From Candidatus Zixiibacteriota bacterium (GTDB taxonomy: Bacteria > Zixibacteria > MSB-5A5 > GN15 > FEB-12): a stretch of 64,000 nt of DNA. Every line of letters begins with the position of its first letter. Positions within the stretch are counted from its first letter, which is position 1. This document shows positions 1-44,287 of this stretch, in pieces. The stretch lies in the NCBI GenBank assembly GCA_024277795.1, contig JAJRUL010000152.1:2006-66005 (forward strand). The letters run 5' to 3'. The notes beneath the pieces were generated by a model. That model worked only from the letters and a program-made list of their open reading frames with translations, had not been told where the DNA came from and did no database searches. The translations under genes and the position numbers were made by a program.

Positions 1-93
1 TGAGCTGTTGCTTGCGTGAATAGCATTGCCTCACTCTTTCATATACTATATCGTCTTTATTTGGGGAAACTTCATCAGATAGCAAGGTAATCA

Positions 94-348
94 CTACGAT
101 TCTGATATATCTTGAGAATCAGACTCTTTCAGATCGGGATCCCGTACCAATATGGCTAATGGGACTAAAATACAGTATCCTATTACCAGCAGGACCGGTG
201 CTAATGAAATTGAGCCTTGATCCAGAGAAATATAGCCTGCTATGATTGTTACTATAGCGACCGCAAAAAAGATATAATTACGCTTGCCAAAGGGCCAACG
301 AAACTCGGCTTTTTCCATCTCTGTAGCTTTTGTTTTTTTGTCTGTCAT
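94..348 (-). CDS. small two-TM membrane protein, function unknown (DUF3098-like impression)
   Basis: 84-aa ORF with a basic N-terminus followed by two hydrophobic helices (IFFAVAIVTIIAGYI; LAPVLLVIGYCILVPLAIL). It is the last gene of the co-directional recX-alaS-...-ligase string. Confidence 0.55.
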   Translation of the reverse strand: MTDKKTKATEMEKAEFRWPFGKRNYIFFAVAIVTIIAGYISLDQGSISLAPVLLVIGYCILVPLAILVRDPDLKESDSQDISES

Positions 349-382
349 AGGCCTCTAATAAACTCTCTTATACACTTGTCTG

Positions 383-1648
383 TCAAGAGATTTCATGTCG
401 TTGTTCCATCTCATCCCGATATTGATTATACCGTGAACCCAATCCAATCGCCCAGATAAACATCAACATTTGTCGAACTTCTTCATCTGTAAAGGTCGCT
501 TCAGTAAAAGAGGTGGCGAAAAAGGTGATGGAGCCCAAAAAAGAGGCTAAACAGACCTGCCTTGTAGCAGGGTCAGCCTCCTGATTTTTCCATCCGCTCC
601 AGAGTATTCTCAGGACAGTTAGCCACAACAGTAGATAGATGACCATCCCGGGAAAGCCACTGACAGCGGCATAATTGAGCAGGTCATTGTGGGCGTGGGC
701 ATGTTTCCAGCGGTCTTCGGCGTCTAGAGGCAGAGATTCACGGTACACCTTGCCAAATTCTCCCTGTCCTACTCCTACGAATGGATGATTAGTGGCAATT
801 TTGAGCGATTCCTGCCAAATATAGAGCCTACTCATTCGATTTGTCCGATTGATCTCCCGATCGAAGGCGGTCATTCGTCCTGTAACAGAGGGCAAAGCTA
901 TAGATGTAATAACGATAATTGCAACAAGTGCACCTAAAAGGTAAAATCGGAGCCGTTTTGATGTCAGCATGGCGATACAGACAAGACCGAAAAGTAGGGC
1001 AAGAATAGAACCACGGCTATGGCTCAGGATGGTAGCGATCACTCCTAGCAAACCAACCGCTATCAGCCACGCTCTATGGTTCACTTGATATATCTGATCC
1101 CCTGCAATTGTATATCCGAGGATAAAGAGAGAGGCAGTTGCCCAGTAATTCCCGAATGTAAGCGGATGCGGGAAACTTCCAATGACTAAATATCCGAACA
1201 GAGGTGCATGATCAGGGGGATAATCTTTCAACCAATTGATACCTGTAAAATATTGTAGAATTCCGTATAGTGAAATAATTCCAATACCTGTTGCGAATAT
1301 TTGAATCAAGAGCGCACGATGCTTTTCTTTTGCACAGAGATAGATTCCAATTGGAATAGCAAAGAACAGCCACTCCTCTCGAATGACATTAAATGCGTTG
1401 AATGATTTGATGGCTAATAATGTTGTCAGAAGTATCCAACAGAGATATAGACCGATAACGAGGTAGAGTGTCTTAAACGGATAACCAAGCGGGTTGAATT
1501 GTCTGGTGATGACTACAACAAGAAATAAGACAGATGCGAGACCTAAGGACATCTGGGCTGTTGCTATTGAAAAGGTCGAACTAAAGACAAAGAGTGCATA
1601 GGCGACGAGGAGCCATAGCGATACAAGAGTTGTCCTCTTATCGGTCAT
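383..1648 (-). CDS. O-antigen ligase / Wzy_C family polytopic membrane protein
   Basis: 421-aa, about 10-TM ORF with Wzy_C-type motifs HSRGSILALLFGLV and HAHNDLLNYAAVSGFPG. Its start overlaps the upstream gmhA stop by 4 nt. Confidence 0.8.
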   Translation of the reverse strand: MTDKRTTLVSLWLLVAYALFVFSSTFSIATAQMSLGLASVLFLVVVITRQFNPLGYPFKTLYLVIGLYLCWILLTTLLAIKSFNAFNVIREEWLFFAIPIGIYLCAKEKHRALLIQIFATGIGIISLYGILQYFTGINWLKDYPPDHAPLFGYLVIGSFPHPLTFGNYWATASLFILGYTIAGDQIYQVNHRAWLIAVGLLGVIATILSHSRGSILALLFGLVCIAMLTSKRLRFYLLGALVAIIVITSIALPSVTGRMTAFDREINRTNRMSRLYIWQESLKIATNHPFVGVGQGEFGKVYRESLPLDAEDRWKHAHAHNDLLNYAAVSGFPGMVIYLLLWLTVLRILWSGWKNQEADPATRQVCLASFLGSITFFATSFTEATFTDEEVRQMLMFIWAIGLGSRYNQYRDEMEQRHEIS

Positions 1649-2235
1649 CCAAATAGATCGCTTTCAATCAAGGCTACTAGTTGATGGATAAGAAATATCT
1701 GTTCTTCTTGTATTCTCTGGGTTGAAGGATGTGGGACAATGACTGCACGATCAACAGTTGTCGCTAACTTTCCACCGTTACCACCGAGAAGCCCCGCAGT
1801 CAACAAACCTTGATCACGTGCTGTATGGGTGGCACGGATTAAGTTTGCAGAGTTGCCCGAGGTTGAAATGACTATCAGCATATCACCTTTTTGGCCAAGG
1901 CCTTCAACCTGTCGTGAGAATATAGATTCAAAACCGTAGTCATTAGCCGATGCTGTCATTACTGCGGGATCAACACATAGGGCAATAGCTGGTAGTGATT
2001 GGCGGTTCTTGTCCGATGAGAGGCGTACAATCATTTCCCCTGCAAAATGTGAAGCGTCGGCAGCTGAGCCACCATTACCTGCGATAAGAATCTTTCCGCC
2101 TGCCCCTATAACGCCTGAAATAACAGCGCTTAGTTCTATGACGCTCTGGCCAAGTTTTTCAATAACAGATTTGCGAAGTATCGCTGATTCGTTGGCAACC
2201 TGTCTGAGCAGGTCTAATTTTTCATCGTTGTTCAT
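1645..2235 (-). CDS. gmhA: SIS-domain phosphoheptose isomerase (D-sedoheptulose-7-phosphate isomerase)
   Basis: 196 aa with GNGGSAADASHFAGEM and VISTSGNS, typical of the GmhA/DiaA SIS fold. It overlaps both neighbours by 4 nt. Confidence 0.8.
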   Translation of the reverse strand: MNNDEKLDLLRQVANESAILRKSVIEKLGQSVIELSAVISGVIGAGGKILIAGNGGSAADASHFAGEMIVRLSSDKNRQSLPAIALCVDPAVMTASANDYGFESIFSRQVEGLGQKGDMLIVISTSGNSANLIRATHTARDQGLLTAGLLGGNGGKLATTVDRAVIVPHPSTQRIQEEQIFLIHQLVALIESDLFG

Positions 2236-3008
2236 GCTGTGACAATCTCAAGAGGGTGAACGGCTGTGGTCATCTCACGAAGCAAAGAAAAACGCTTATC
2301 TTGATTCTTTTCGAGAAGATTACCTACTACAATAAATGATGCCCCTGCTTCAATACGGGTGGCACAGTCTTCAGGTTTACGTAAACCACCGCCAGTAATT
2401 ATTGGGATATCAATATATGATGCTACTTTAGTAATCAGTTCAACAGGCACCGCATGGGTAGCTCCGCTTCCAGCTTCAAGGTAGACTAGTCGCATTCCGA
2501 GATACTGAGTGGCAAGGGCATGAGCTGTCGCAATATCCGGTTTATCACGTGGGATAGGTGATGTGTTCGAAATATACTGGACTGAAGTCAGGTTGTCGGA
2601 AGCGATAAGCAGATAGCCTGTAGGGATAGATTCAAGGTTGAATCGCTTTACCAATGGGGCACCTTTTACTTGTTCCCCTATAAGATATTCAGGGTTGCGT
2701 CCTGATAATAATGAAGTAAAGAGTATAGCATCTGCTTCGGGTCGAATCTGTGCGTAAGATCCTGGAAAAATAATCACAGGCAAAGTTGTGATCTCTTTGA
2801 TTTTTCGTACAGTAGCACCGAAATCCTGCTCAAGTAAGAATGAGGTCCCAACTAATATAGCATCAACTCCGCAATCTTCTGCAGCCTCAGCCAAAGCTAT
2901 TGCTTCATGTGTTGAAGTGCGATCGGGATCTATCAGTACAAGAAAACCGCCCCCACGCTCTTTTCGTGCAGTTAGGAGATGATTAAGTACGGAATGGTCT
3001 AACACCAT
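2232..3008 (-). CDS. geranylgeranylglyceryl-phosphate synthase family (GGGPS/PcrB) prenyltransferase
   Basis: TIM-barrel pattern LVLIDPDR ... DAILVGTS ... FPG ... SLLSGRNPEYLIGEQ ... YLEAGSGA ... ITGGGLR ... IVVGNLLE matches the polyprenylglyceryl-phosphate synthase family. The ATG at 3006-3008 overlaps the alaS TGA (sequence TGATG). Confidence 0.8.
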   Translation of the reverse strand: MVLDHSVLNHLLTARKERGGGFLVLIDPDRTSTHEAIALAEAAEDCGVDAILVGTSFLLEQDFGATVRKIKEITTLPVIIFPGSYAQIRPEADAILFTSLLSGRNPEYLIGEQVKGAPLVKRFNLESIPTGYLLIASDNLTSVQYISNTSPIPRDKPDIATAHALATQYLGMRLVYLEAGSGATHAVPVELITKVASYIDIPIITGGGLRKPEDCATRIEAGASFIVVGNLLEKNQDKRFSLLREMTTAVHPLEIVTA

Positions 3009-5614
3009 CAAACCTCACTTTGTAGAACTTCCTTTACTGTGTCAAAAAGCTGTTGTGATTTGGTCTCGCTAGCAACCCCACCTTGCGCGTAGTTCGGTTT
3101 CCCCCCACCACGACCTCCGAACTTTGGCAAAATAGCCTGAGAGAGTTTTCCGACATGCACACTATTCTCGCTCACAGCTTTGGCACTCGCTGACGCAATA
3201 TAGACCGACTTTCCGTTAACCAATCCAAGGGCAATAGCGACAACAGCATCTGTTCTCTCTTTTTGTGAGTCAACCCATGCTGACATAATGTCACGGTCGG
3301 TATCTTCAAAGTCATTTGTAATAAATGTCAAAGCACCAATCTTTTCTTCACTTCCGATTGATGGCCCTGAATGGGAAAACATCTCAGCTTTGACTTTCTT
3401 AATCTCTTTTTGCAGCTCTAACGTTTCAGTTCGAAGCTGTTTGACTGCCTTGAGTGCGTCATTCTCAGACCGACCAAGAGTTTCAGCAACTTCTCTGCGG
3501 AACTGTTTGGCTGAAAGCATAAAGTTGACTGCTTCGCTTCCCGTAATAGCTTCGATACGTCGCACACCACTTGCAATGCCTGTTTCTACTGTGACGAAAA
3601 ACGGGCCGATTTGAGCAGTATTATCAACATGGGTCCCCCCGCAAAGCTCTTTAGAGAAATTGGCTACTGATACGACTCTTACTGTCTCGCCATATTTCTC
3701 ACCAAATAACGCACGTGCACCTGTTTTACGTGCCTCATCTATATTCATTTCATCGGTAACAACCTCTGTTGCCGAGAGAATCTGTTGGTTGACGATCTCC
3801 TCGACACGCTTGATTTCCTCAACGGTCATAGGTTGGTGATGAGAAAAGTCAAAACGGAGTCGGTCAGGTCCTACGTAGGAGCCTGATTGCTTAATATGGT
3901 CACCGAGTATTTCACGAAGGGCGGCATGTGTAAGATGTGTTGCAGTATGGTTTCGCATAATCGCCCAACGTCGGTCAATGTCAACTACAGCAGTTACTGT
4001 GTCACCTGCATTGACTGACCCTTTCACCAATGTGCCGAACAGAATAATACTGTTGCCTTGCTGTCGGGATTCGTTCACATGAAATTCAAAAGAACCATCT
4101 GAGTTTGTTACCAAACCACTGTCATGAGTTTGGCCACCTGATTCAATATAAAAAGGAGATTCATCAAGAACGATATATTTGTTATCAATACTGTCATCAA
4201 GGTTCTTTGCCAGAACTTTCGCCTTGTGTCCAACAGATAACTCATGGTTGCTTTGTCGCATCCATTTCGCATCAGGGAGCTCATCACGTATAAGTTCGAC
4301 AGTCTGTGAGGTTCGACCCGATCGTGATTGCTCTTTTTGTTTGTTCATGGCCTTTTCAAAACCGACAAGATCAATCGTCATCCCCTTTTCAGTAGCCATT
4401 ATTTCTGTCAGGTCGACAGGGAAGCCATAGGTATCATAGAGCTTAAATACTTCGTCTCCAGGAATAACTGTCGATCCGGATGCACTAATTTTTTTTGCAA
4501 CACTAGAGAATAGCTCAAGACCGTTTTCAAGTGTACGTCCAAAAGAGTCTTCTTCGGCTCGAATAACTTTCACAATATGCGATTGTTTTTCAACTATCTC
4601 AGGAAATGCCGAACCCATTTCATTAACTAAAGCAGGTACGAGTTTGTAAATAAACGGTTCCTCCATTCCGAGTAATCGTCCGTGACGAGATGCCCGTCGG
4701 AGAATCCGTCTCAGTACATATCCCTGTCCTTCATTACTGATACCGGCACCATCGGCAATGGCAAAAGTAAGAGCGCGAAGATGATCGGCCACAACATGAT
4801 GCGAAGTGATATGTTCTTTATACTGTGAACCTGTAGCATCTGAGATTGCAGTAATAATATTCTGAAAAAGATCAATCTCATAGTTTGAACCGACATTTTG
4901 CATAAGTGTCGCTATTCGTTCTAACCCTGCACCAGTGTCAACAGACGGTTTGGGAAGATCGACAACAGTACCGTCTGCCAAAGTTTCAAATTGCATGAAC
5001 ACTAAGTTCCAAAACTCGACAAAACGTTCAGTTTCACCGTTGACGACATCTTGAGGGCTAGTTCCATATTGTTCGCCACGGTCAAAATGTATCTCACTGC
5101 ATGGTCCGCACGGACCAATATCACCCATAGTCCAGAAGTTATCTTTTTTACCGAATCGGGTGATACGTCCATTCTTTAGTTCAGGAGCGATCTTCTCCCA
5201 AAGATTATATGCTTCATCATCATCTTCATATACACTTACCCACAACCTGCTTTGATCCAATTGCAAGTTTTTGGTGATCCATTCCCAAGCAAAGGAAATA
5301 GCTTCCTCTTTGAAATAGTCTCCAAAGGAGAAGTTCCCAAGCATTTCAAAGAAAGTATGATGACGTGCTGTGAATCCAACATTGTCGAGATCATTATGTT
5401 TCCCACCCGCGCGAATACATTTTTGTGATGAGGTCGCACGTGAATAGGGAAGGGCACGTTGGCCTGTAAAGACATCTTTGAATTGATTCATTCCGGCGTT
5501 GGTAAAGAGCAGAGTCGGGTCATTGTACGGTATCACAGGAGATGATGGCACGACTTTATGATCTTTTCCTTTGAAGTAATCCAGGAATGATTGTCGTATA
5601 TCTGCAGTTTTGAT
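3008..5614 (-). CDS. alaS: alanine--tRNA ligase, with a probable non-canonical ATC start
   Basis: The ORF-track ORF (GTG at 5551) is a full-length AlaRS (FTNAGMNQFK, HHTFFEMLGNFSFGDY, C-terminal GGGKPNYAQGG). The conserved N-terminal sequence IKTADIRQSFLDYFKGKDHKV continues in frame upstream of 5551. There is no ATG, GTG or TTG before the in-frame TGA at 5627-5629. I extended the gene to ATC 5612-5614, which has GAGGA 9 nt upstream. Confidence 0.9.
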   Translation of the reverse strand: MKTADIRQSFLDYFKGKDHKVVPSSPVIPYNDPTLLFTNAGMNQFKDVFTGQRALPYSRATSSQKCIRAGGKHNDLDNVGFTARHHTFFEMLGNFSFGDYFKEEAISFAWEWITKNLQLDQSRLWVSVYEDDDEAYNLWEKIAPELKNGRITRFGKKDNFWTMGDIGPCGPCSEIHFDRGEQYGTSPQDVVNGETERFVEFWNLVFMQFETLADGTVVDLPKPSVDTGAGLERIATLMQNVGSNYEIDLFQNIITAISDATGSQYKEHITSHHVVADHLRALTFAIADGAGISNEGQGYVLRRILRRASRHGRLLGMEEPFIYKLVPALVNEMGSAFPEIVEKQSHIVKVIRAEEDSFGRTLENGLELFSSVAKKISASGSTVIPGDEVFKLYDTYGFPVDLTEIMATEKGMTIDLVGFEKAMNKQKEQSRSGRTSQTVELIRDELPDAKWMRQSNHELSVGHKAKVLAKNLDDSIDNKYIVLDESPFYIESGGQTHDSGLVTNSDGSFEFHVNESRQQGNSIILFGTLVKGSVNAGDTVTAVVDIDRRWAIMRNHTATHLTHAALREILGDHIKQSGSYVGPDRLRFDFSHHQPMTVEEIKRVEEIVNQQILSATEVVTDEMNIDEARKTGARALFGEKYGETVRVVSVANFSKELCGGTHVDNTAQIGPFFVTVETGIASGVRRIEAITGSEAVNFMLSAKQFRREVAETLGRSENDALKAVKQLRTETLELQKEIKKVKAEMFSHSGPSIGSEEKIGALTFITNDFEDTDRDIMSAWVDSQKERTDAVVAIALGLVNGKSVYIASASAKAVSENSVHVGKLSQAILPKFGGRGGGKPNYAQGGVASETKSQQLFDTVKEVLQSEV

Positions 5615-5619
5615 AGTCG

Positions 5620-6270
5620 CTAATCCTCAGCTTGTTGTTTTATCATCTGTTCAAATGCTTCTTTCGAGGCTTGGTATCCAAAACCTCGACGAGACAGGTA
5701 ATTATAGGCTTTACGTCGTGCTACTTCAAGTTCAAAGTGGTTGTACTGTCTCCATTTGCTCTCGAGTGCGGAAAGTGCGCGATCTGATTCAGATTGTTTA
5801 GAAAGGATCATCTCAGCAATGTTGTGCGCTATGCTTGAATTTATTCTTCTTCGTACAAGATATGCTTTCATATATGAAAGCCCGCAGGGGCGACGGTCAG
5901 CGAGTTGGGTTGCAAGCCTGTATGCGTATCGTTCGTCATCAAGCAATCCCTGTTTTTTGCAATTGCTAATGACTTCTTCAATATGCTTCTTATCAAACTG
6001 CTTTCGTTGAAGGCGAAGACGAAACTCACCGATTGAATAGTCACGCATAAGCAGAAGGCGCGCTCCCTCTTTTTCACAGAGGAGGAACATCGCTTTTTGC
6101 TGTAATTGCTCGAGTTGAGCTTCAGTAAGTATTGTACCCTCTACTAGCTTCAGTTGTACGAGAAGGGTCTCTGAAATAATGATTGGCTCACTCAATGAGG
6201 AGACTTTGATTTCAACTCTGCTCCCACGTCGCTTGATTTCTTCTATCTTAATTGACATTCCAACCTTCAC
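5620..6270 (-). CDS. recX: recombination regulator RecX
   Basis: 216 aa with helical-repeat C-terminal two-thirds (YAYRLATQL..., RKAYNYLSRRGFGYQ) typical of RecX. It has the classic position immediately upstream of alaS. An alternative ATG start lies at 6258. Confidence 0.75.
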   Translation of the reverse strand: MKVGMSIKIEEIKRRGSRVEIKVSSLSEPIIISETLLVQLKLVEGTILTEAQLEQLQQKAMFLLCEKEGARLLLMRDYSIGEFRLRLQRKQFDKKHIEEVISNCKKQGLLDDERYAYRLATQLADRRPCGLSYMKAYLVRRRINSSIAHNIAEMILSKQSESDRALSALESKWRQYNHFELEVARRKAYNYLSRRGFGYQASKEAFEQMIKQQAED

Positions 6271-6421
6271 TCTTTTGATTCGAGAATATATTCTGATTTT
6301 GTTTGTGACAAAACTTAAAAGACAGTTATTAAATAAGTAGTTGAGTAGTACGTGATAGTACGTTAAAGTACTTGTTTCTACTGAATCACGTGAAAAGATC
6401 TCAACAAGCGCAATTTCCGTA

Positions 6422-6450
6422 TTGACTTACACTCGCTTAAAGTGTATGAT
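6422..6450 (+). promoter_or_regulatory. sigma70-like promoter candidate TTGACT-N17-TATGAT for the 6605-8558 operon
   Basis: TTGACT is at 6422-6427 and TATGAT at 6445-6450, with a 17-nt spacer. A second perfect TATAAT at 6574-6579 with a weak -35 is an alternative. Confidence 0.4.
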
Positions 6451-6604
6451 TCTGATGAGATATTGAGACAGTAAGCTATTGAGTTCTGGTGGCTTGGCGA
6501 TCTAATCTTGTTGCGTTTATTGCATCTGCTTGTAGTATAGTAGGTTATGGCAACTTGTTTCGTCATACATCGGTATAATACGATTTGAGTACTTGGAGTT
6601 AAAG

Positions 6605-7465
6605 ATGGAACTGGATCTGCAGGGAAATATCGAGCGGTTTACGCTTCCTGAAATATTTCAACTTGTTGCGGCAGGTCGAAAATCTGGTACGTTGGGAATT
6701 CAGCGTGAGGATTCAATTGTAATGGTATATTTCAAGGATGGAAATATCATTTATGGTTATGGTCCTCGTCAGACTTTTCACCTCGGACAGCTACTTCAAC
6801 AAAAAGGTATTATTACTGCAGAGCAGTTACGTGAAGCGGTTGAAGCACAGGGGAAAGGTGAAAACAGTAAGCGACTTGGCGAGATTCTGATTTCCCGTCG
6901 TTTCATCGACAGGGCTGATTTGGAGGCAGTTGTCAAAGGACAGGTAGAAGAATTGTTGTATTCTTTGCTTTCATGGCAGGTCGGGTCATTCAAATTCTAT
7001 GAAGACCTGTACCCGACTGAAGAAGAGATTACGGTTTCTTTGTCTGTTGAGAATGTTATTCTTGAAGGGCTTCGACGGCTTGATGAAAAAGAGATGGTAT
7101 CTGAGACTATACCTGATTTGGATGTCGTCTTTTCACTCTCAGCCGCTCAGCAAGGACGCGGTCGTGCGGTAACGCTTGAAGCGACAGAATGGAATGTCAT
7201 GGCTTTAGTCGATGGTCGTCGATCAGTCAGAGAGATTTGTAAGATATCTCCCGTTAGTGAACAGGAGACACGGACTAAAATGGCTCAGTTGCTCTTAGCG
7301 GGGATAATCACCAAAACTGACCGCAAGCCTCAAAGTTCAGTTGACTTTGAGCGGATGGCGAATCGTTTGGCAGGGCTGTTTGAGGAATATCTTACAGAGA
7401 AGAAGACGCACAATCGTTTAAAAGATCATAATATTACACACACAATTGTGGAGGCGACCGAGTGA
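6605..7465 (+). CDS. DUF4388 (PATAN-like) protein with a tandem GspE-N/MshEN-like repeat
   Basis: N-terminus LQGNIERFTLPEIFQLVAAGRKSGTLGI is the DUF4388 signature. It is followed by HLGQLLQQKGIITAEQLREAVEAQ and RLGEILISRRFIDRADLEAVVKGQ. I prefer the ATG at 6605, which has GGAG 6 nt upstream, over the track TTG at 6593. Confidence 0.75.
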   Translation: MELDLQGNIERFTLPEIFQLVAAGRKSGTLGIQREDSIVMVYFKDGNIIYGYGPRQTFHLGQLLQQKGIITAEQLREAVEAQGKGENSKRLGEILISRRFIDRADLEAVVKGQVEELLYSLLSWQVGSFKFYEDLYPTEEEITVSLSVENVILEGLRRLDEKEMVSETIPDLDVVFSLSAAQQGRGRAVTLEATEWNVMALVDGRRSVREICKISPVSEQETRTKMAQLLLAGIITKTDRKPQSSVDFERMANRLAGLFEEYLTEKKTHNRLKDHNITHTIVEATE

Positions 7466-36144: not shown

Positions 36145-36714
36145 CTAGTCTACTTCTCTGTTTACTACTCTAATCATTCGTAACCCATCACCGATGGCAG
36201 TCTTACCGACAAGTTCAAAACCTGCTTTCAAATAACAACCGAGTATGATTTCATCACATCCCCGCAAGTGAAGCACTACTTTGCTGATTAGAGGTCGAGC
36301 TGCGGCGCGGTTGTACAATAGGTTGAGCATTTTTGTTCCGTATCCTTCTCCCTGTTTGAATGGATCAACGATCAGATGAGCAATTTCGACTGATCGCTCA
36401 ACATCACGAATCCAAAGTTCTCCGTATGCGATAGCCTGATTTTCCCCAAAAAGCAAATATGATTTGACATCGGGTCTTTGCCAGGTAGCGACGATATTTT
36501 CAGGGGGAGGGAAATCCTTGCCGTGGCAAATATTCAAGTAGGTTTCAGCGCTGTTTATCCATGAGCGGACAGTTTGTGCATATTCTTCGCTGTAAGGGAT
36601 CAGGTCGGCCTGGGCATGAGTCTGTTCGGTCAAAGCAGTCCTCCAGTTTTTCAGTGGGGCAATATACAACGATGAATCGGAGGTTGCAACACAACTGTTT
36701 TGGTCGATTGACAA
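36145..36714 (-). CDS. GNAT family N-acetyltransferase
   Basis: 189 aa with the acetyl-CoA motif A-like region LIVDPFKQGEGYGTKML. Confidence 0.7.
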   Translation of the reverse strand: MSIDQNSCVATSDSSLYIAPLKNWRTALTEQTHAQADLIPYSEEYAQTVRSWINSAETYLNICHGKDFPPPENIVATWQRPDVKSYLLFGENQAIAYGELWIRDVERSVEIAHLIVDPFKQGEGYGTKMLNLLYNRAAARPLISKVVLHLRGCDEIILGCYLKAGFELVGKTAIGDGLRMIRVVNREVD

Positions 36715-43232: not shown

Positions 43233-43691
43233 CTAGTTACACCTTTGCGATATGTAGATAACAATCTGTGTGATGATATTTGCTTGAATTCCCGCAACGA
43301 GGTCATCCATCGTTACTCCCCAACCACGTGGCAGTTTTTCTGCTTGAGATGCCGGTGGGACTTTAATGACATCTGTGATTCGAAATACAACAAAAGCAAT
43401 AAGATAGTTGGGTATTGAGAGAGGAATCCAAATCAATGTTATAAACATCCCCGCCCATTCATCCATGACGATCTTCTTTGAGTCATGCCCAAAGAGTTTT
43501 TCAGCTTCACCTGCTGACCAGACTGAGAGAATAGTGAATACAACTGTTCCTGCGAGAAGCATGGGTTGGTTTCCTGCAACGAAATAATAAGCGAGGAGTA
43601 GAGGAGGTATTGACCCGACAGTACCTGATACGATTGGAGAGTATCCCGAGTAGAGGCCGGTAGCAACAAGTTTGACAATGCTATTTTTCAT
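43233..43691 (-). CDS. pgpA: phosphatidylglycerophosphatase A
   Basis: 152 aa with GLYSGYSPIVSGTVGS and DDLVAG PgpA motifs. Confidence 0.85.
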   Translation of the reverse strand: MKNSIVKLVATGLYSGYSPIVSGTVGSIPPLLLAYYFVAGNQPMLLAGTVVFTILSVWSAGEAEKLFGHDSKKIVMDEWAGMFITLIWIPLSIPNYLIAFVVFRITDVIKVPPASQAEKLPRGWGVTMDDLVAGIQANIITQIVIYISQRCN

Positions 43692-43699
43692 CTCTGTCC

Positions 43700-44287
43700 T
43701 TATTTCAAGGCTGTCTTAATCATGTGGTAATAACGTACAATATAGTTTACTCCAGTCCAAACAGTCACAACTGCCGTTATCCAGAGCAGTATATTAAAAA
43801 CAAAGAGATGGTCAAAACGTAACATTTCGACGATTGGTGATTCAATATGCTCTAACACCATGATAAGATTAATATATGCAAGTACTCCACCTACTACTGT
43901 CAATTGCAAAAATGTTTTAACTTTGGCTAATCCAGTTGGAGGTATAACGACCCCGCGGTACGCTGCTAAGAGCCTCAGGCCTGTTATTGAGAATTCACGG
44001 CCAACAATCAACATTACAGGCAAAGGGGAGACATAGTGTAATGCGATAAATGAAATCAATGCACATGAGACCAGAATCTTATCAGCGAGCGGATCCATGA
44101 ATTTTCCGAAGCCCGTAATAATCCCATATTTTCGAGCATAGTACCCGTCGGCCATGTCTGTAAAGGCCGCAATAATAAAGAGCCCCAATGCTGTTAGTCG
44201 CATATAGAAACTATCCAGCAGGAAGAAATACATAAATATTGGGGCGATGATAACCCGCAACAGGGTCAATTTATTGGGCGTGTTCAT
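43700..44287 (-). CDS. pgsA: CDP-diacylglycerol--glycerol-3-phosphate 3-phosphatidyltransferase
   Basis: The CDP-alcohol phosphatidyltransferase motif DMADGYYARKYG...GKFMDPLADK. Confidence 0.9.
   Translation of the reverse strand: MNTPNKLTLLRVIIAPIFMYFFLLDSFYMRLTALGLFIIAAFTDMADGYYARKYGIITGFGKFMDPLADKILVSCALISFIALHYVSPLPVMLIVGREFSITGLRLLAAYRGVVIPPTGLAKVKTFLQLTVVGGVLAYINLIMVLEHIESPIVEMLRFDHLFVFNILLWITAVVTVWTGVNYIVRYYHMIKTALK

What the first reader, a model, noticed from the sequence alone, without database searches (positions are those of the whole stretch)
383..3008. Archaeal-type polyprenylglyceryl-phosphate synthase (GGGPS/PcrB family) embedded in an alaS-gmhA-O-antigen-ligase operon
Seen: alaS, the GGGPS-family gene, gmhA and a Wzy_C/O-antigen-ligase-like gene follow each other on the minus strand with 1-4 nt stop/start overlaps (TGATG at 3006-3010; overlaps at 2232-2235 and 1645-1648). 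This implies co-translation. Established: GGGPS makes the first ether bond of archaeal lipids, and Bacillus PcrB makes heptaprenylglyceryl phosphate. GGGPS homologues have been reported in FCB-group bacteria with unclear function. Inference: the coupling to a heptose isomerase and a glycan ligase suggests the product may be a membrane anchor or carrier for a surface glycopolymer rather than a bulk lipid. The normal bacterial pgsA and pgpA genes are present at 43233-44287.
Basis: partly seen in the sequence, partly recalled or inferred. Interest (0 to 1): 0.55.

Follow-up and report, generated by a model that had tools for sequence, protein, structure and literature searches.

The report
Bacterial GGGPS in housekeeping gene string
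A Zixibacteria-like genome carries an intact bacterial copy of the enzyme that makes the first ether bond of archaeal-type lipids, in a conserved run of genes next to alaS and two envelope-sugar genes; the enzyme is a known kind in this bacterial group, and the gene order gives only weak evidence that it works with its neighbours.

Summary
On the minus strand, recX, alaS, a GGGPS-family gene (2232-3008), a GmhA-type SIS isomerase (1645-2235), a WaaL/Wzy_C-like membrane protein (383-1648) and a small DUF3098-like protein follow each other. The junctions are TGATG and two ATGA overlaps.

The GGGPS is a group II (bacterial IIb, FCB-type) enzyme. Its Mg/diphosphate, G1P-binding and catalytic residues are all conserved. 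Its chain-length limiter is a C20-type Ile, and a Tyr sits at the hexamer "aromatic anchor" position. The closest relatives (63-69% identity) are Candidatus Zixiibacteriota MAGs.

The gene order alaS-GGGPS-gmhA(-Wzy_C-DUF3098) recurs in about 30 related loci, including three complete Zixibacteria genomes. The adjacency erodes equally on both sides: some loci keep alaS-GGGPS without gmhA, some keep GGGPS-gmhA without alaS, and one has alaS-gmhA without GGGPS. Other FCB lineages place GGGPS among unrelated housekeeping genes.

No G1PDH, UbiA/DGGGPS, geranylgeranyl reductase or prenyl synthase lies in the 64 kb window.

GGGPS and DGGGPS in Zixibacteria were already reported (Coleman 2019). The verdict is a new member of a known kind. 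The "glycopolymer anchor" idea stays speculative.

The parts
2232..3008 (-). Group II (IIb, FCB-type) geranylgeranylglyceryl phosphate synthase, 258 aa from the ATG at 3008 (alternative in-frame TTG at 3011).
   Evidence: Family scores: PF01884 at 3e-45, NF003198 at 287.6 (cut-off 247), TIGR01769 at 202.5 (cut-off 161.55). Solved structures: 4mm1 at 2.4e-51 and 4jej at 6.7e-51, against group I 2f6u at 1.2e-8 and PcrB 3vzx at 5.4e-7. Conserved residues: D27, S56, Y132, Y176, E178, S181-G182, G206-G208 and G229. The limiter is I88 and the anchor is Y145.
1645..2235 (-). GmhA-type SIS-domain phosphoheptose isomerase, 196 aa.
   Evidence: PF13580 at 1.5e-18. NCBIfam gmhA models give the best hits, but all fall below cut-off. 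Solved GmhA structures 2xbl/2x3y match at 2e-40. H63, E67, D99, S124-T125-S126, Q176 and H184 are invariant in 16 GGGPS-adjacent orthologues.
383..1648 (-). WaaL/O-antigen-ligase-like polytopic membrane protein (Wzy_C), 421 aa.
   Evidence: PF04932 at 1.1e-25, 90.5 bits (cut-off 31.7). The best solved structure is 7tpg, deposited as 'putative cell surface polysaccharide polymerase/ligase', at 1.1e-11, with an aligned HAHND motif. It sits in this position in 10 genome loci, 3 metagenome loci and 2 further complete genomes.
94..348 (-). Small DUF3098-like membrane protein, 84 aa. It is the conserved last gene of the string.
   Evidence: Weak PF11297 hit, 23 bits against a cut-off of 25. A homologue follows Wzy_C in Zixibacteria loci.
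3008..5551 (-). Alanine--tRNA ligase (alaS). Its stop codon overlaps the GGGPS start codon.
   Evidence: TIGR00344 at 891.6 bits (cut-off 457). It lies upstream of GGGPS in 20 of 68 genome loci.
5620..6270 (-). recX, the probable first gene of the co-directional string. A 68-nt gap separates it from alaS.
   Evidence: RecX_HTH3 and NCBIfam RecX models, all below cut-off. recX lies upstream of alaS in related loci.
3006..3010 (-). TGATG stop/start overlap between alaS and GGGPS.
   Evidence: Sequence read.
2232..2235 (-). ATGA start/stop overlap between GGGPS and gmhA.
   Evidence: Sequence read. The same 4-nt overlap occurs in most Zixibacteria loci.
1645..1648 (-). ATGA start/stop overlap between gmhA and Wzy_C.
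   Evidence: Sequence read.

Best explanation
The gene at 2232-3008 (minus strand) encodes a functional group II (IIb) GGGPS of a Zixibacteria-like bacterium.

What the enzyme does:
- It is a soluble TIM-barrel prenyltransferase. With Mg2+ it ionises a C20 prenyl diphosphate (GGPP) and attaches the chain by an ether bond to the C3 hydroxyl of sn-glycerol-1-phosphate, giving GGGP.
- It probably acts as a hexamer.
- This step is inferred from strong homology and intact catalytic residues. It was not assayed.

Why it sits here: it is expressed as part of a vertically inherited, co-directional string, recX-alaS-GGGPS-gmhA-waaL-like-DUF3098-like. The tight junctions reflect compact operon packing and constitutive co-expression. 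They do not reflect a shared pathway. gmhA and the WaaL-like gene serve envelope (LPS-type) glycan synthesis, and alaS serves translation.

What happens to the product (inferred): GGGP is a low-abundance ether lipid precursor. It is processed by enzymes encoded elsewhere, namely the UbiA-type DGGGPS reported for the phylum and then the ordinary CDP-alcohol machinery such as the pgsA/pgpA in this window. The source of G1P is unknown because no G1PDH is reported for Zixibacteria.
For: Identity of the enzyme:
- Curated family cut-offs are passed.
- It is about 1e-51 to the group II structures of M. thermautotrophicus and F. johnsoniae, against about 1e-8 and 5e-7 for group I and PcrB.
- The Mg site D27, S56, the Tyr/Tyr/Glu triad Y132/Y176/E178 and the phosphate loops SG, GGG and G(N/T) are conserved in the window. 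They are conserved in all or nearly all of the 63 other sequences in the alignment (61 relatives from loci plus the mt and fj references). Residue roles are taken from PMC9385802.
- The limiter I88 matches FjGGGPS I90. Y145 aligns with the mtGGGPS W141 anchor (PMC7888582).

Inherited string rather than pathway:
- The same order occurs in Zixibacteria genome loci L001-L008 and L014, in metagenome loci L069-L071, and in complete genomes CP070674 and CP070824.
- alaS-GGGPS persists without SIS in L021, L023 and L036. GGGPS-SIS persists without alaS in L018, L024 and L067, where in L018 and L067 GGGPS overlaps an upstream gcvP gene. L092 has alaS-SIS and no GGGPS. L087 has a CpsB-like gene inserted.
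- 9 of 35 same-strand pairs in the window overlap, including unrelated genes.
- The SIS protein is an ordinary GmhA. Relatives of equal similarity mostly lack GGGPS (8 of 53 have it), and the two kinds are interleaved in the tree.
- Other FCB lineages put GGGPS in different housekeeping contexts.

Literature:
- All 12 FCB phyla surveyed, Zixibacteria among them, have GGGPS and DGGGPS. [quoted passage not shown]
- Bacteroidetes and Cloacimonetes enzymes make GGGP in vitro (PMC7852524).
Against: - The GGGPS-gmhA pair is tightly overlapped and survives in at least three different flanking contexts. That is more than expected for two random neighbours.
- Membrane enzymes that use polyprenyl-phosphate-linked substrates recur next to the pair: the WaaL-like protein in the close relatives and a convergent PMT_2/ArnT-like GT-C protein in five distal loci. 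In L087 the gene between GGGPS and SIS is a CpsB-like phosphatase, identified by motif only.
- No DGGGPS, G1PDH, GGR or GGPP synthase was found in the 64 kb window. The proposed downstream fate therefore rests on a phylum-level literature statement, not on this genome.
- No lipid or expression data exist.
Confidence: 0.62

Rival explanations
1. This is the reader's idea: GGGPS, GmhA and the WaaL-like ligase form a functional module. The polyprenylglyceryl phosphate made by GGGPS serves as a membrane anchor or carrier for a heptose-containing surface glycan. It would play the role undecaprenyl phosphate plays elsewhere, or the role the Bacillus heptaprenylglyceryl lipid plays for acetyl groups.
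For: - 4-nt overlaps link GGGPS, gmhA and Wzy_C.
- GGGPS-SIS adjacency occurs in 21 of 68 genome loci and 8 metagenome loci. It is kept when the flanks change, in L018, L067 and L024.
- Enzymes that depend on polyprenyl-linked substrates recur downstream: Wzy_C, which is duplicated in CP070824, and PMT_2 in L010, L013, L015, L017 and L049.
- There is a precedent: the PcrB product is a catalytic carrier lipid, not a bulk lipid (PMC12345273).
Against: - alaS is equally overlapped and equally conserved.
- Wzy_C is confined to the closest relatives.
- SIS is lost while alaS-GGGPS stays (L021, L023, L036). GGGPS is absent while alaS-SIS stays (L092).
- The SIS protein is not a specialised subfamily.
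- GGGPS in Bacteroidia and WOR-3 has no glycan neighbours.
- No glycosyltransferase that would load a sugar onto GGGP is present in the string.
Confidence: 0.12
2. GGGPS feeds a substantial 'mixed' membrane. Together with a DGGGPS encoded elsewhere, CdsA, and the PgsA/PgpA in this window, the cell makes archaeal-type diether phospholipids as real membrane constituents, as proposed for Candidatus Cloacimonetes.
For: - FCB phyla, Zixibacteria among them, carry both GGGPS and DGGGPS orthologues (PMC6431249).
- The Cloacimonetes genes gave archaeal-type lipids in E. coli (PMC7852524).
- pgsA and pgpA are present.
- A related bacterial GGGPS (L064, 50% identity) sits in a full operon of GGR, CDP-alcohol transferase, UbiA/DGGGPS, GGGPS and a radical SAM gene. 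Enzymes of this clade can therefore belong to lipid pathways.
Against: - No G1PDH is reported for the phylum.
- None of the partner genes lies in the 64 kb window or in the flanks of related Zixibacteria loci.
- No archaeal-type lipids have been demonstrated in these bacteria.
- A housekeeping operon position says nothing about flux.
Confidence: 0.2
3. The enzyme is a relic, or it works in the reverse or salvage direction on environmental archaeal lipids. Coleman et al. suggested this for FCB bacteria that lack G1PDH.
For: G1PDH is absent in most FCB phyla, and the possibility is raised in PMC6431249.
Against: - The catalytic residues are almost fully conserved across 64 aligned sequences, which indicates purifying selection for the forward-type active site.
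- The gene holds a conserved, translationally coupled position among essential genes.
- Related enzymes catalyse the forward reaction in vitro.
Confidence: 0.05

Closest known systems
Group IIb bacterial GGGPS of Bacteroidetes (Flavobacterium johnsoniae FjGGGPS, PDB 4jej; Peterhoff et al. 2014, as summarised in PMC9385802 and PMC7888582)
   Same: - Same family and group: 6.7e-51 over 226 residues.
- Same catalytic and G1P-binding residues, and the same Ile at the proposed chain-length limiter (I88 against I90).
- Bacterial FCB host, and the physiological role is unknown.
   Different: - FjGGGPS has Arg at the anchor position and is a dimer. The window protein has Tyr (Y145), like hexameric group II enzymes (PMC7888582).
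- The genomic context differs. In Bacteroidales the order is ssb-gldE-gldD-PPTase-GGGPS.
Methanothermobacter thermautotrophicus GGGPS (group IIa, PDB 4mm1)
   Same: - It is the best structural relative (2.4e-51).
- The active-site residues are the same.
- An aromatic residue sits at the hexamer anchor (W141 against Y145).
   Different: It is an archaeal enzyme that supplies the bulk membrane lipid pathway, with G1PDH, DGGGPS, CarS and GGR in the same genome. None of these is found near the window gene.
Candidatus Cloacimonetes GGGPS/DGGGPS 'mixed membrane' system (Villanueva et al. 2021, PMC7852524)
   Same: An FCB-group bacterium with an archaeal-type GGGPS, no G1PDH, and the normal bacterial phospholipid genes alongside.
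   Different: - For Cloacimonetes, DGGGPS co-occurrence, environmental expression and heterologous activity were shown. Here only the GGGPS is seen.
- The conserved alaS-GGGPS-gmhA arrangement was not found in the papers read or in the paper searches run here.
Bacillus subtilis PcrB (group Ib heptaprenylglyceryl phosphate synthase) with YvoF/LhaT acetyl-carrier pathway (PMC12345273)
   Same: - A bacterial member of the same superfamily.
- Its product is a low-abundance functional lipid rather than a bulk membrane lipid. This is the precedent for a carrier role.
   Different: - The relationship is distant (3vzx, 5.4e-7; NF003197 at 30 bits against a cut-off of 260).
- The group differs, and so does the limiter architecture (C35 against C20).
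- No family typical of YvoF or LhaT turned up in the window or in the neighbours that were scanned, but no direct search was made. AraM/G1PDH is reported absent from the phylum.

Membership tests
GGGPS/PcrB family (Pfam PF01884) | Match to the family profile above the curated threshold, over the full TIM barrel | tested here: met
   PF01884 at 154.9 bits against 23.9, residues 16-242 matched to profile positions 4-220 of 226. NF003198 at 287.6 against 247.
Group II GGGPS (as opposed to group I / PcrB) | Closer to group II than to group I representatives | tested here: met
   Group II: 4mm1 at 2.4e-51, 4jej at 6.7e-51, 6jo3 at 9.6e-45. Group I: 2f6u at 1.2e-8 and PcrB 3vzx/1viz at about 5e-7. 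TIGR01769 is above cut-off. The PcrB equivalog NF003197 scores 30.1 against 260. In an NJ tree rooted on mtGGGPS, it sits inside the Zixibacteria clade of bacterial group II sequences. No group I sequence was included in the tree.
Group II GGGPS | Catalytic and G1P-binding residues: the Mg/diphosphate Asp, the Tyr/Tyr/Glu triad and the standard phosphate-binding loops | tested here: met
   D27, S56, Y132, Y176, E178, S181-G182, G206-G208 and G229-N230 align with the mtGGGPS and fjGGGPS residues. They are invariant or nearly so in 64 aligned sequences. Roles are from PMC9385802. The review's mtGGGPS numbering differs by a few positions from the PDB chain numbering, so the match was made by motif (GYL, YLEAGSG, GGG, VGN/T).
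Group II GGGPS | C20 specificity (small hydrophobic limiter on helix alpha-3') | tested here: inconclusive
   I88 aligns with fjGGGPS I90 and mtGGGPS V86. The limiter is poorly defined in group II (PMC9385802), so chain length needs an assay.
Group II GGGPS | Hexamer hallmark: an aromatic anchor in the ring interface | tested here: met
   Y145 aligns with mtGGGPS W141. At this position the 64 sequences have 36 Tyr, 20 Phe, 4 Ser, 2 Arg, 1 Trp and 1 His. The criterion is from PMC7888582. The oligomeric state itself was not measured.
Group II GGGPS | Enzymatic formation of GGGP from GGPP and G1P | not testable with these tools
   Needs purified protein and a product assay.
Complete archaeal-type ether lipid pathway (G1PDH, GGPPS, GGGPS, DGGGPS, CarS, GGR) | Partner genes present with GGGPS | tested here: not met
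   No Fe-ADH/G1PDH, UbiA, polyprenyl synthase, CarS or GGR family appeared among 50 of the 52 called window ORFs scanned. No UbiA-motif ORF was found in the window or in Zixibacteria loci. This covers 64 kb only, and the rest of the genome could not be searched. The literature reports DGGGPS but no G1PDH for the phylum.
GmhA (D-sedoheptulose-7-phosphate isomerase) | SIS fold with the GmhA catalytic/metal residues, and a score above the equivalog cut-off | tested here: inconclusive
   Solved GmhA structures match at 2e-40 (2xbl), better than DiaA at 2.6e-28. The H-x3-E, STSG and Q...H motifs are invariant in 16 orthologues. Assigning these motifs to metal binding and catalysis rests on my own knowledge of GmhA structures. 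All NCBIfam gmhA equivalogs are below cut-off, for example 173.8 against 209.45.
WaaL / O-antigen ligase family (Wzy_C) | Wzy_C domain in a polytopic membrane protein with the conserved His motif | tested here: met
   PF04932 at 90.5 bits against 31.7. 7tpg at 1.1e-11 with aligned RG and HAHND motifs. Whether it acts as a ligase, a polymerase or an O-oligosaccharyltransferase cannot be told from sequence.
PcrB/YvoF/LhaT acetyl-carrier lipid system | Group Ib PcrB together with a YvoF acetyltransferase and the LhaT membrane transferase | tested here: not met
   The enzyme is group II, not PcrB. The Pfam scans of the string and of most conserved neighbour clusters showed no acetyltransferase family next to GGGPS. 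The GNAT gene at 36145-36714 is 33 kb away. No dedicated search for YvoF or LhaT was made.

The most novel reading that the evidence does not exclude
In Zixibacteria and their relatives, the conserved GGGPS-GmhA pair, with a WaaL-like or ArnT-like membrane enzyme next to it, is a real functional unit. An archaeal-type geranylgeranylglyceryl phosphate would act as a dedicated carrier or anchor lipid for a heptose-containing envelope glycan. This would give the long-unexplained bacterial group II GGGPS a physiological role parallel to the acetyl-carrier role recently found for Bacillus PcrB.
Probability: 0.1. Interest if true: 0.75.

Novelty: new member of a known kind. Interest (0 to 1): 0.3.

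Why it matters
Bacterial group II GGGPS enzymes are central to the "lipid divide" debate. Their physiological role in FCB bacteria is still unknown, and so is the source of G1P in bacteria without G1PDH (PMC6431249, PMC7888582, PMC13400652).

This locus adds a well-conserved, probably hexameric Zixibacteria enzyme. It also shows that in this lineage the gene travels with alaS and gmhA, not with lipid genes. That is useful as a negative result, because synteny here does not reveal the pathway. It also yields a cheap hypothesis to test: does any GG-glycerol lipid carry heptose or glycan?

If the module reading were right, it would assign a function to a whole class of bacterial "archaeal" enzymes. 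The more probable ordinary reading confirms what surveys have already reported.

Tried and rejected
- **Exact-sequence look-ups.** The window's GGGPS, its gmhA and the 100%-identical P0001 returned no contig. The cluster look-up gave no name or accession. The source genome could not be extended beyond the window.
- **Zixibacteria DGGGPS.** I searched the protein database with the UbiA protein of L064. Only Chloroflexi-labelled and Bacteroidia-labelled DGGGPS-like proteins came back, none labelled Zixibacteria. The word-indexed search is too insensitive to count as evidence of absence.
- **A specialised SIS subfamily.** I asked whether the GGGPS-adjacent SIS proteins form their own subfamily. 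The reverse synteny test and the NJ tree say no.
- **The SIS isomerase as the missing G1P source.** Rejected on chemistry. An aldose-ketose isomerase cannot reduce DHAP.
- **Tes/GDGT-MAS in L064.** I checked whether the radical SAM gene next to GGGPS in L064 is a tetraether synthase. The PDB and NCBIfam searches listed only peptide-maturase and heme-type radical SAM/SPASM enzymes. No tetraether synthase appeared, and every hit was below cut-off.
- **Other scans of 1-7000.** Promoter and terminator scans, repeats, Rfam and tRNA scans showed nothing that defines operon boundaries or regulatory RNAs.
- **Peterhoff et al. 2014.** The paper is not held in the library. Its content is cited through PMC9385802 and PMC7888582.


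Full report
**1. Checking the observation**

ORF listing and direct reading of the minus strand confirm six co-directional genes:
- recX, 5620-6270
- alaS, 3008-5551
- a GGGPS-family gene, 2232-3008 from the ATG
- a SIS-domain gene, 1645-2235
- a Wzy_C gene, 383-1648
- a small 84-aa gene, 94-348

TGATG lies at 3006-3010, where the alaS stop shares a base with the GGGPS start. ATGA lies at 2232-2235 and at 1645-1648.

Profile searches support the names:
- PF01884 at 154.9 bits
- NF003198 at 287.6 (cut-off 247)
- TIGR01769 "phosphoglycerol geranylgeranyltransferase" at 202.5 (cut-off 161.55)
- TIGR00344 alaS at 891.6
- PF04932 Wzy_C at 90.5
- PF13580 SIS_2

The only soft label is gmhA. Every NCBIfam gmhA equivalog scores below its cut-off (best 178.7 against 276; TIGR00441 173.8 against 209.45).

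pgpA and pgsA are at the stated coordinates.

**2. What the GGGPS gene is**

Against solved structures, the protein matches the group II enzymes far better than group I enzymes or PcrB:

| Structure | Type | E-value |
|---|---|---|
| 4mm1, M. thermautotrophicus | group II | 2.4e-51 |
| 4jej, F. johnsoniae | group II | 6.7e-51 |
| 2f6u, A. fulgidus | group I | 1.2e-8 |
| 3vzx, B. subtilis PcrB | group I (PcrB) | 5.4e-7 |

I took residue roles from the de Kok & Driessen review (PMC9385802) and mapped them through the pairwise alignments and a 64-sequence MAFFT alignment.
- The Mg/diphosphate Asp (D27) and S56 are present.
- The stereospecificity and catalysis triad (Y132 in GYL; Y176 and E178 in YLEAGSG) is present.
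- The three phosphate-binding loops (S181-G182, G206-G208, G229-N230) are present.
- All of these are invariant or nearly so across relatives.
- The proposed group II chain-length limiter is Ile (I88), as in the C20-specific FjGGGPS (I90).
- Y145 aligns with the mtGGGPS W141 "aromatic anchor", which marks hexameric group II enzymes (PMC7888582). The dimeric Flavobacteriales enzyme has Arg there.

It is not met.

**3. Whose gene it is**

The database holds one identical protein, on a 70-kb NCBI contig. The next hits are 63-69% identical and are labelled Candidatus Zixiibacteriota or FCB group. Some come from complete 3.3-3.6 Mb chromosomes. The window therefore comes from a divergent Zixibacteria-like MAG.

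Coleman et al. 2019 already list Zixibacteria among 12 FCB phyla that all have GGGPS and DGGGPS orthologues. [quoted passage not shown] Bacteroidetes and Cloacimonetes enzymes make GGGP in vitro (PMC7852524). The biological function of these bacterial lipids is described as unknown (PMC7888582).

**4. Is the gene order conserved?**

A scan of one genome per GTDB species returned 68 loci encoding relatives. I located the window's neighbours in them by tblastn, then called ORFs and clustered them.
- The full order recX-alaS-GGGPS-SIS-Wzy_C-DUF3098-like recurs in the close Zixibacteria loci L001-L008 and L014, and partly in L012.
- alaS-GGGPS-SIS recurs in 16 loci.
- GGGPS-SIS is adjacent in 21 loci, usually with 1-20-nt overlaps.
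- Independent gene calls in two further complete genomes (CP070674.1, CP070824.1) show the same order. One of them has a tandem Wzy_C duplication.

The second refutation criterion, an order unique to this genome, is also not met.

**5. Does the order mean function?**

Several controls say it mostly does not.

- *alaS as a control.* alaS has no conceivable role in a lipid or glycan pathway. Yet it is as tightly overlapped with GGGPS as gmhA is, and its adjacency is kept as deeply. It persists into Latescibacterota (L021) and into L023 and L036 at 43-48% GGGPS identity, where SIS is gone.
- *Symmetric decay.* L018, L067 and L024 keep GGGPS-SIS without alaS. In L018 and L067 GGGPS overlaps an upstream glycine-cleavage P-protein gene, and xerC/D follows SIS. 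L092 has alaS followed directly by the SIS gene with no GGGPS. In L087 a 273-aa gene sits between GGGPS and SIS. I read it as a CpsB-like PHP phosphatase from its motif only.
- *Wzy_C is shallow.* It is limited to the closest relatives. In more distant Zixibacteria-like loci the string ends after SIS, and a convergent PMT_2 (ArnT-like GT-C) gene or unrelated genes follow.
- *Overlaps are common here.* 9 of 35 same-strand neighbouring pairs in the window overlap, including tsaD/YbbR-like and LigT/CinA.
- *Reverse test.* I started from an alignment of the SIS proteins and scanned metagenome contigs, which returned 80 loci. Of these, 53 had enough upstream sequence to judge.

| SIS identity to the window | Loci with GGGPS upstream |
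|---|---|
| 55% or more | 3 of 3 |
| 45-54% | 3 of 21 |
| below 45% | 2 of 29 |

  In an NJ tree, the GGGPS-adjacent SIS proteins are interleaved with non-adjacent ones.
- *The SIS protein looks like an ordinary GmhA.* It matches Burkholderia GmhA (2xbl) at 2e-40, better than DiaA. The H-x3-E, D, STSG and Q...H motifs are invariant.
- *Other FCB lineages use other contexts.* In Bacteroidales the order is ssb-gldE-gldD-PPTase-GGGPS. In Chitinophaga-like Bacteroidia it is GGGPS-unknown-purK-purE. In WOR-3 it is nuoN-GGGPS, or GGGPS-purD-purE-Sua5.

The simplest reading is an ancestral alaS-GGGPS-gmhA block in the Zixibacteria-related clade (NJ tree). Compact co-directional packing keeps it together, and it erodes slowly.

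**6. What still speaks for a link**

- The GGGPS-gmhA pair survives three different flank contexts.
- The gene next to the pair is repeatedly a membrane enzyme that uses polyprenyl-phosphate-linked donors (WaaL-like, ArnT-like).
- The Wzy_C protein resembles the solved WaaL-type ligase 7tpg (1.1e-11, HAHND motif aligned).
- In Bacillus, the PcrB product has recently been shown to be a carrier lipid for acetyl groups, not a structural lipid (PMC12345273).

**7. The rest of the archaeal pathway**

I scanned 50 of the 52 called ORFs in the 64-kb window against Pfam. None is a UbiA prenyltransferase, Fe-ADH-type G1PDH, polyprenyl synthase, CarS or geranylgeranyl reductase. A motif-plus-hydrophobicity screen found no UbiA-like ORF in the window or in the Zixibacteria loci.

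The window does hold glmS-glmM and the LigT-CinA-pgpA-pgsA run. The remainder of the genome could not be searched with these tools, so DGGGPS presence and G1PDH absence rest on the phylum-level literature statement. Recent work states that no route to G1P other than G1PDH/AraM is known, although one must exist in E. coli (PMC13400652). The glycerol-phosphate donor for this enzyme therefore remains an open point.

**8. A contrasting relative found in passing**

L064 carries a GGGPS 50% identical to the window's. Its record is labelled Anaerolineales, and its UbiA protein's nearest named relatives are Chloroflexi MAG proteins that NCBI calls DGGGPS. In L064 the GGGPS sits in a co-directional cluster:
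- a geranylgeranyl-reductase family protein (TIGR02032 at 193 against a cut-off of 158.8)
- a CDP-alcohol phosphatidyltransferase
- a UbiA/DGGGPS-like protein
- GGGPS
- a radical SAM/SPASM protein
- an unknown protein
- an ABC-2 transporter

A true lipid operon around a bacterial group II GGGPS therefore looks very different from the window's string. The radical SAM protein gave no hit to a tetraether synthase. Its matches are SkfB-like and heme-type radical SAM/SPASM enzymes, all below cut-off.

**9. Verdict**

- The gene is an intact, probably hexameric, C20-type group IIb GGGPS.
- Its presence in Zixibacteria is already known at survey level.
- The conserved alaS-GGGPS-gmhA(-waaL-like) arrangement did not turn up in the papers I could search. 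It is best explained as inherited operon packing, not a pathway.
- Novelty: new member of a known kind.
- Interest is about 0.3. It would rise to about 0.75 only if the carrier/anchor module were demonstrated.

Noticed in passing
L064:5028-14824 (CAZIWL010000004.1); partly also L032: A MAG contig labelled Anaerolineales carries a co-directional archaeal-lipid-like operon. The order is GGR-family reductase, CDP-alcohol phosphatidyltransferase, UbiA/DGGGPS-like, group II GGGPS, radical SAM/SPASM protein, an unknown 339-aa protein, then an ABC-2 transporter. Its UbiA has 45-52% relatives named DGGGPS in Chloroflexi MAGs.
   Followed up: partly
L092:841-4327: In this metagenome contig, alaS is followed after 32 nt by the GmhA-type SIS gene, with no GGGPS between them. 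The alaS-gmhA neighbourhood therefore exists without GGGPS.
   Followed up: partly
L087:3428-5579: A 273-aa gene is inserted between GGGPS and the SIS gene. It has a DTHAHLLP...DDGA N-terminus, which I read as a CpsB/YwqE-like PHP tyrosine phosphatase from the motif only. No profile search was run.
   Followed up: no
L010:4751-6226 (also L013, L015, L017, L049): In distal Zixibacteria-like loci, the gene after GGGPS-SIS is a convergent protein of about 490-510 aa (353 aa in the contig-end locus L049) with a PMT_2 domain (GT-C, ArnT-like). It takes the place of the WaaL-like gene.
   Followed up: partly
L151:11346-13898 (CP070824.1): In this complete Zixibacteria genome the Wzy_C gene after gmhA is duplicated in tandem (420 and 423 aa).
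   Followed up: no
window:10789-15679: A 785-aa protein has a C-terminal Peptidase_S74 domain (endosialidase/tail-fibre chaperone). It lies divergent from a 753-aa protein with M23 peptidase and dockerin domains. Both look like surface or phage-like proteins.
   Followed up: no
window:46471-50109: A class II (B12-dependent) ribonucleotide reductase is unusually long at 1212 aa. Its barrel domain matches in two stretches, and it has a TSCPD domain. It may contain an insertion or an intein.
   Followed up: no
window:53333-61961: This is a run of large proteins without Pfam matches (622, 876, 296 and 192 aa) around a 504-aa protein with a cytochrome c7-like multihaem motif.
   Followed up: no
window:38054-44287: A co-directional minus-strand run holds glmS, glmM, LigT-like 2'-5' RNA ligase, CinA, pgpA and pgsA. 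It has 4-nt overlaps between unrelated genes (LigT/CinA).
   Followed up: partly
window:29919-32018: A methyl-accepting chemotaxis protein has a NIT (nitrate/nitrite-sensing) domain and a HAMP domain.
   Followed up: no
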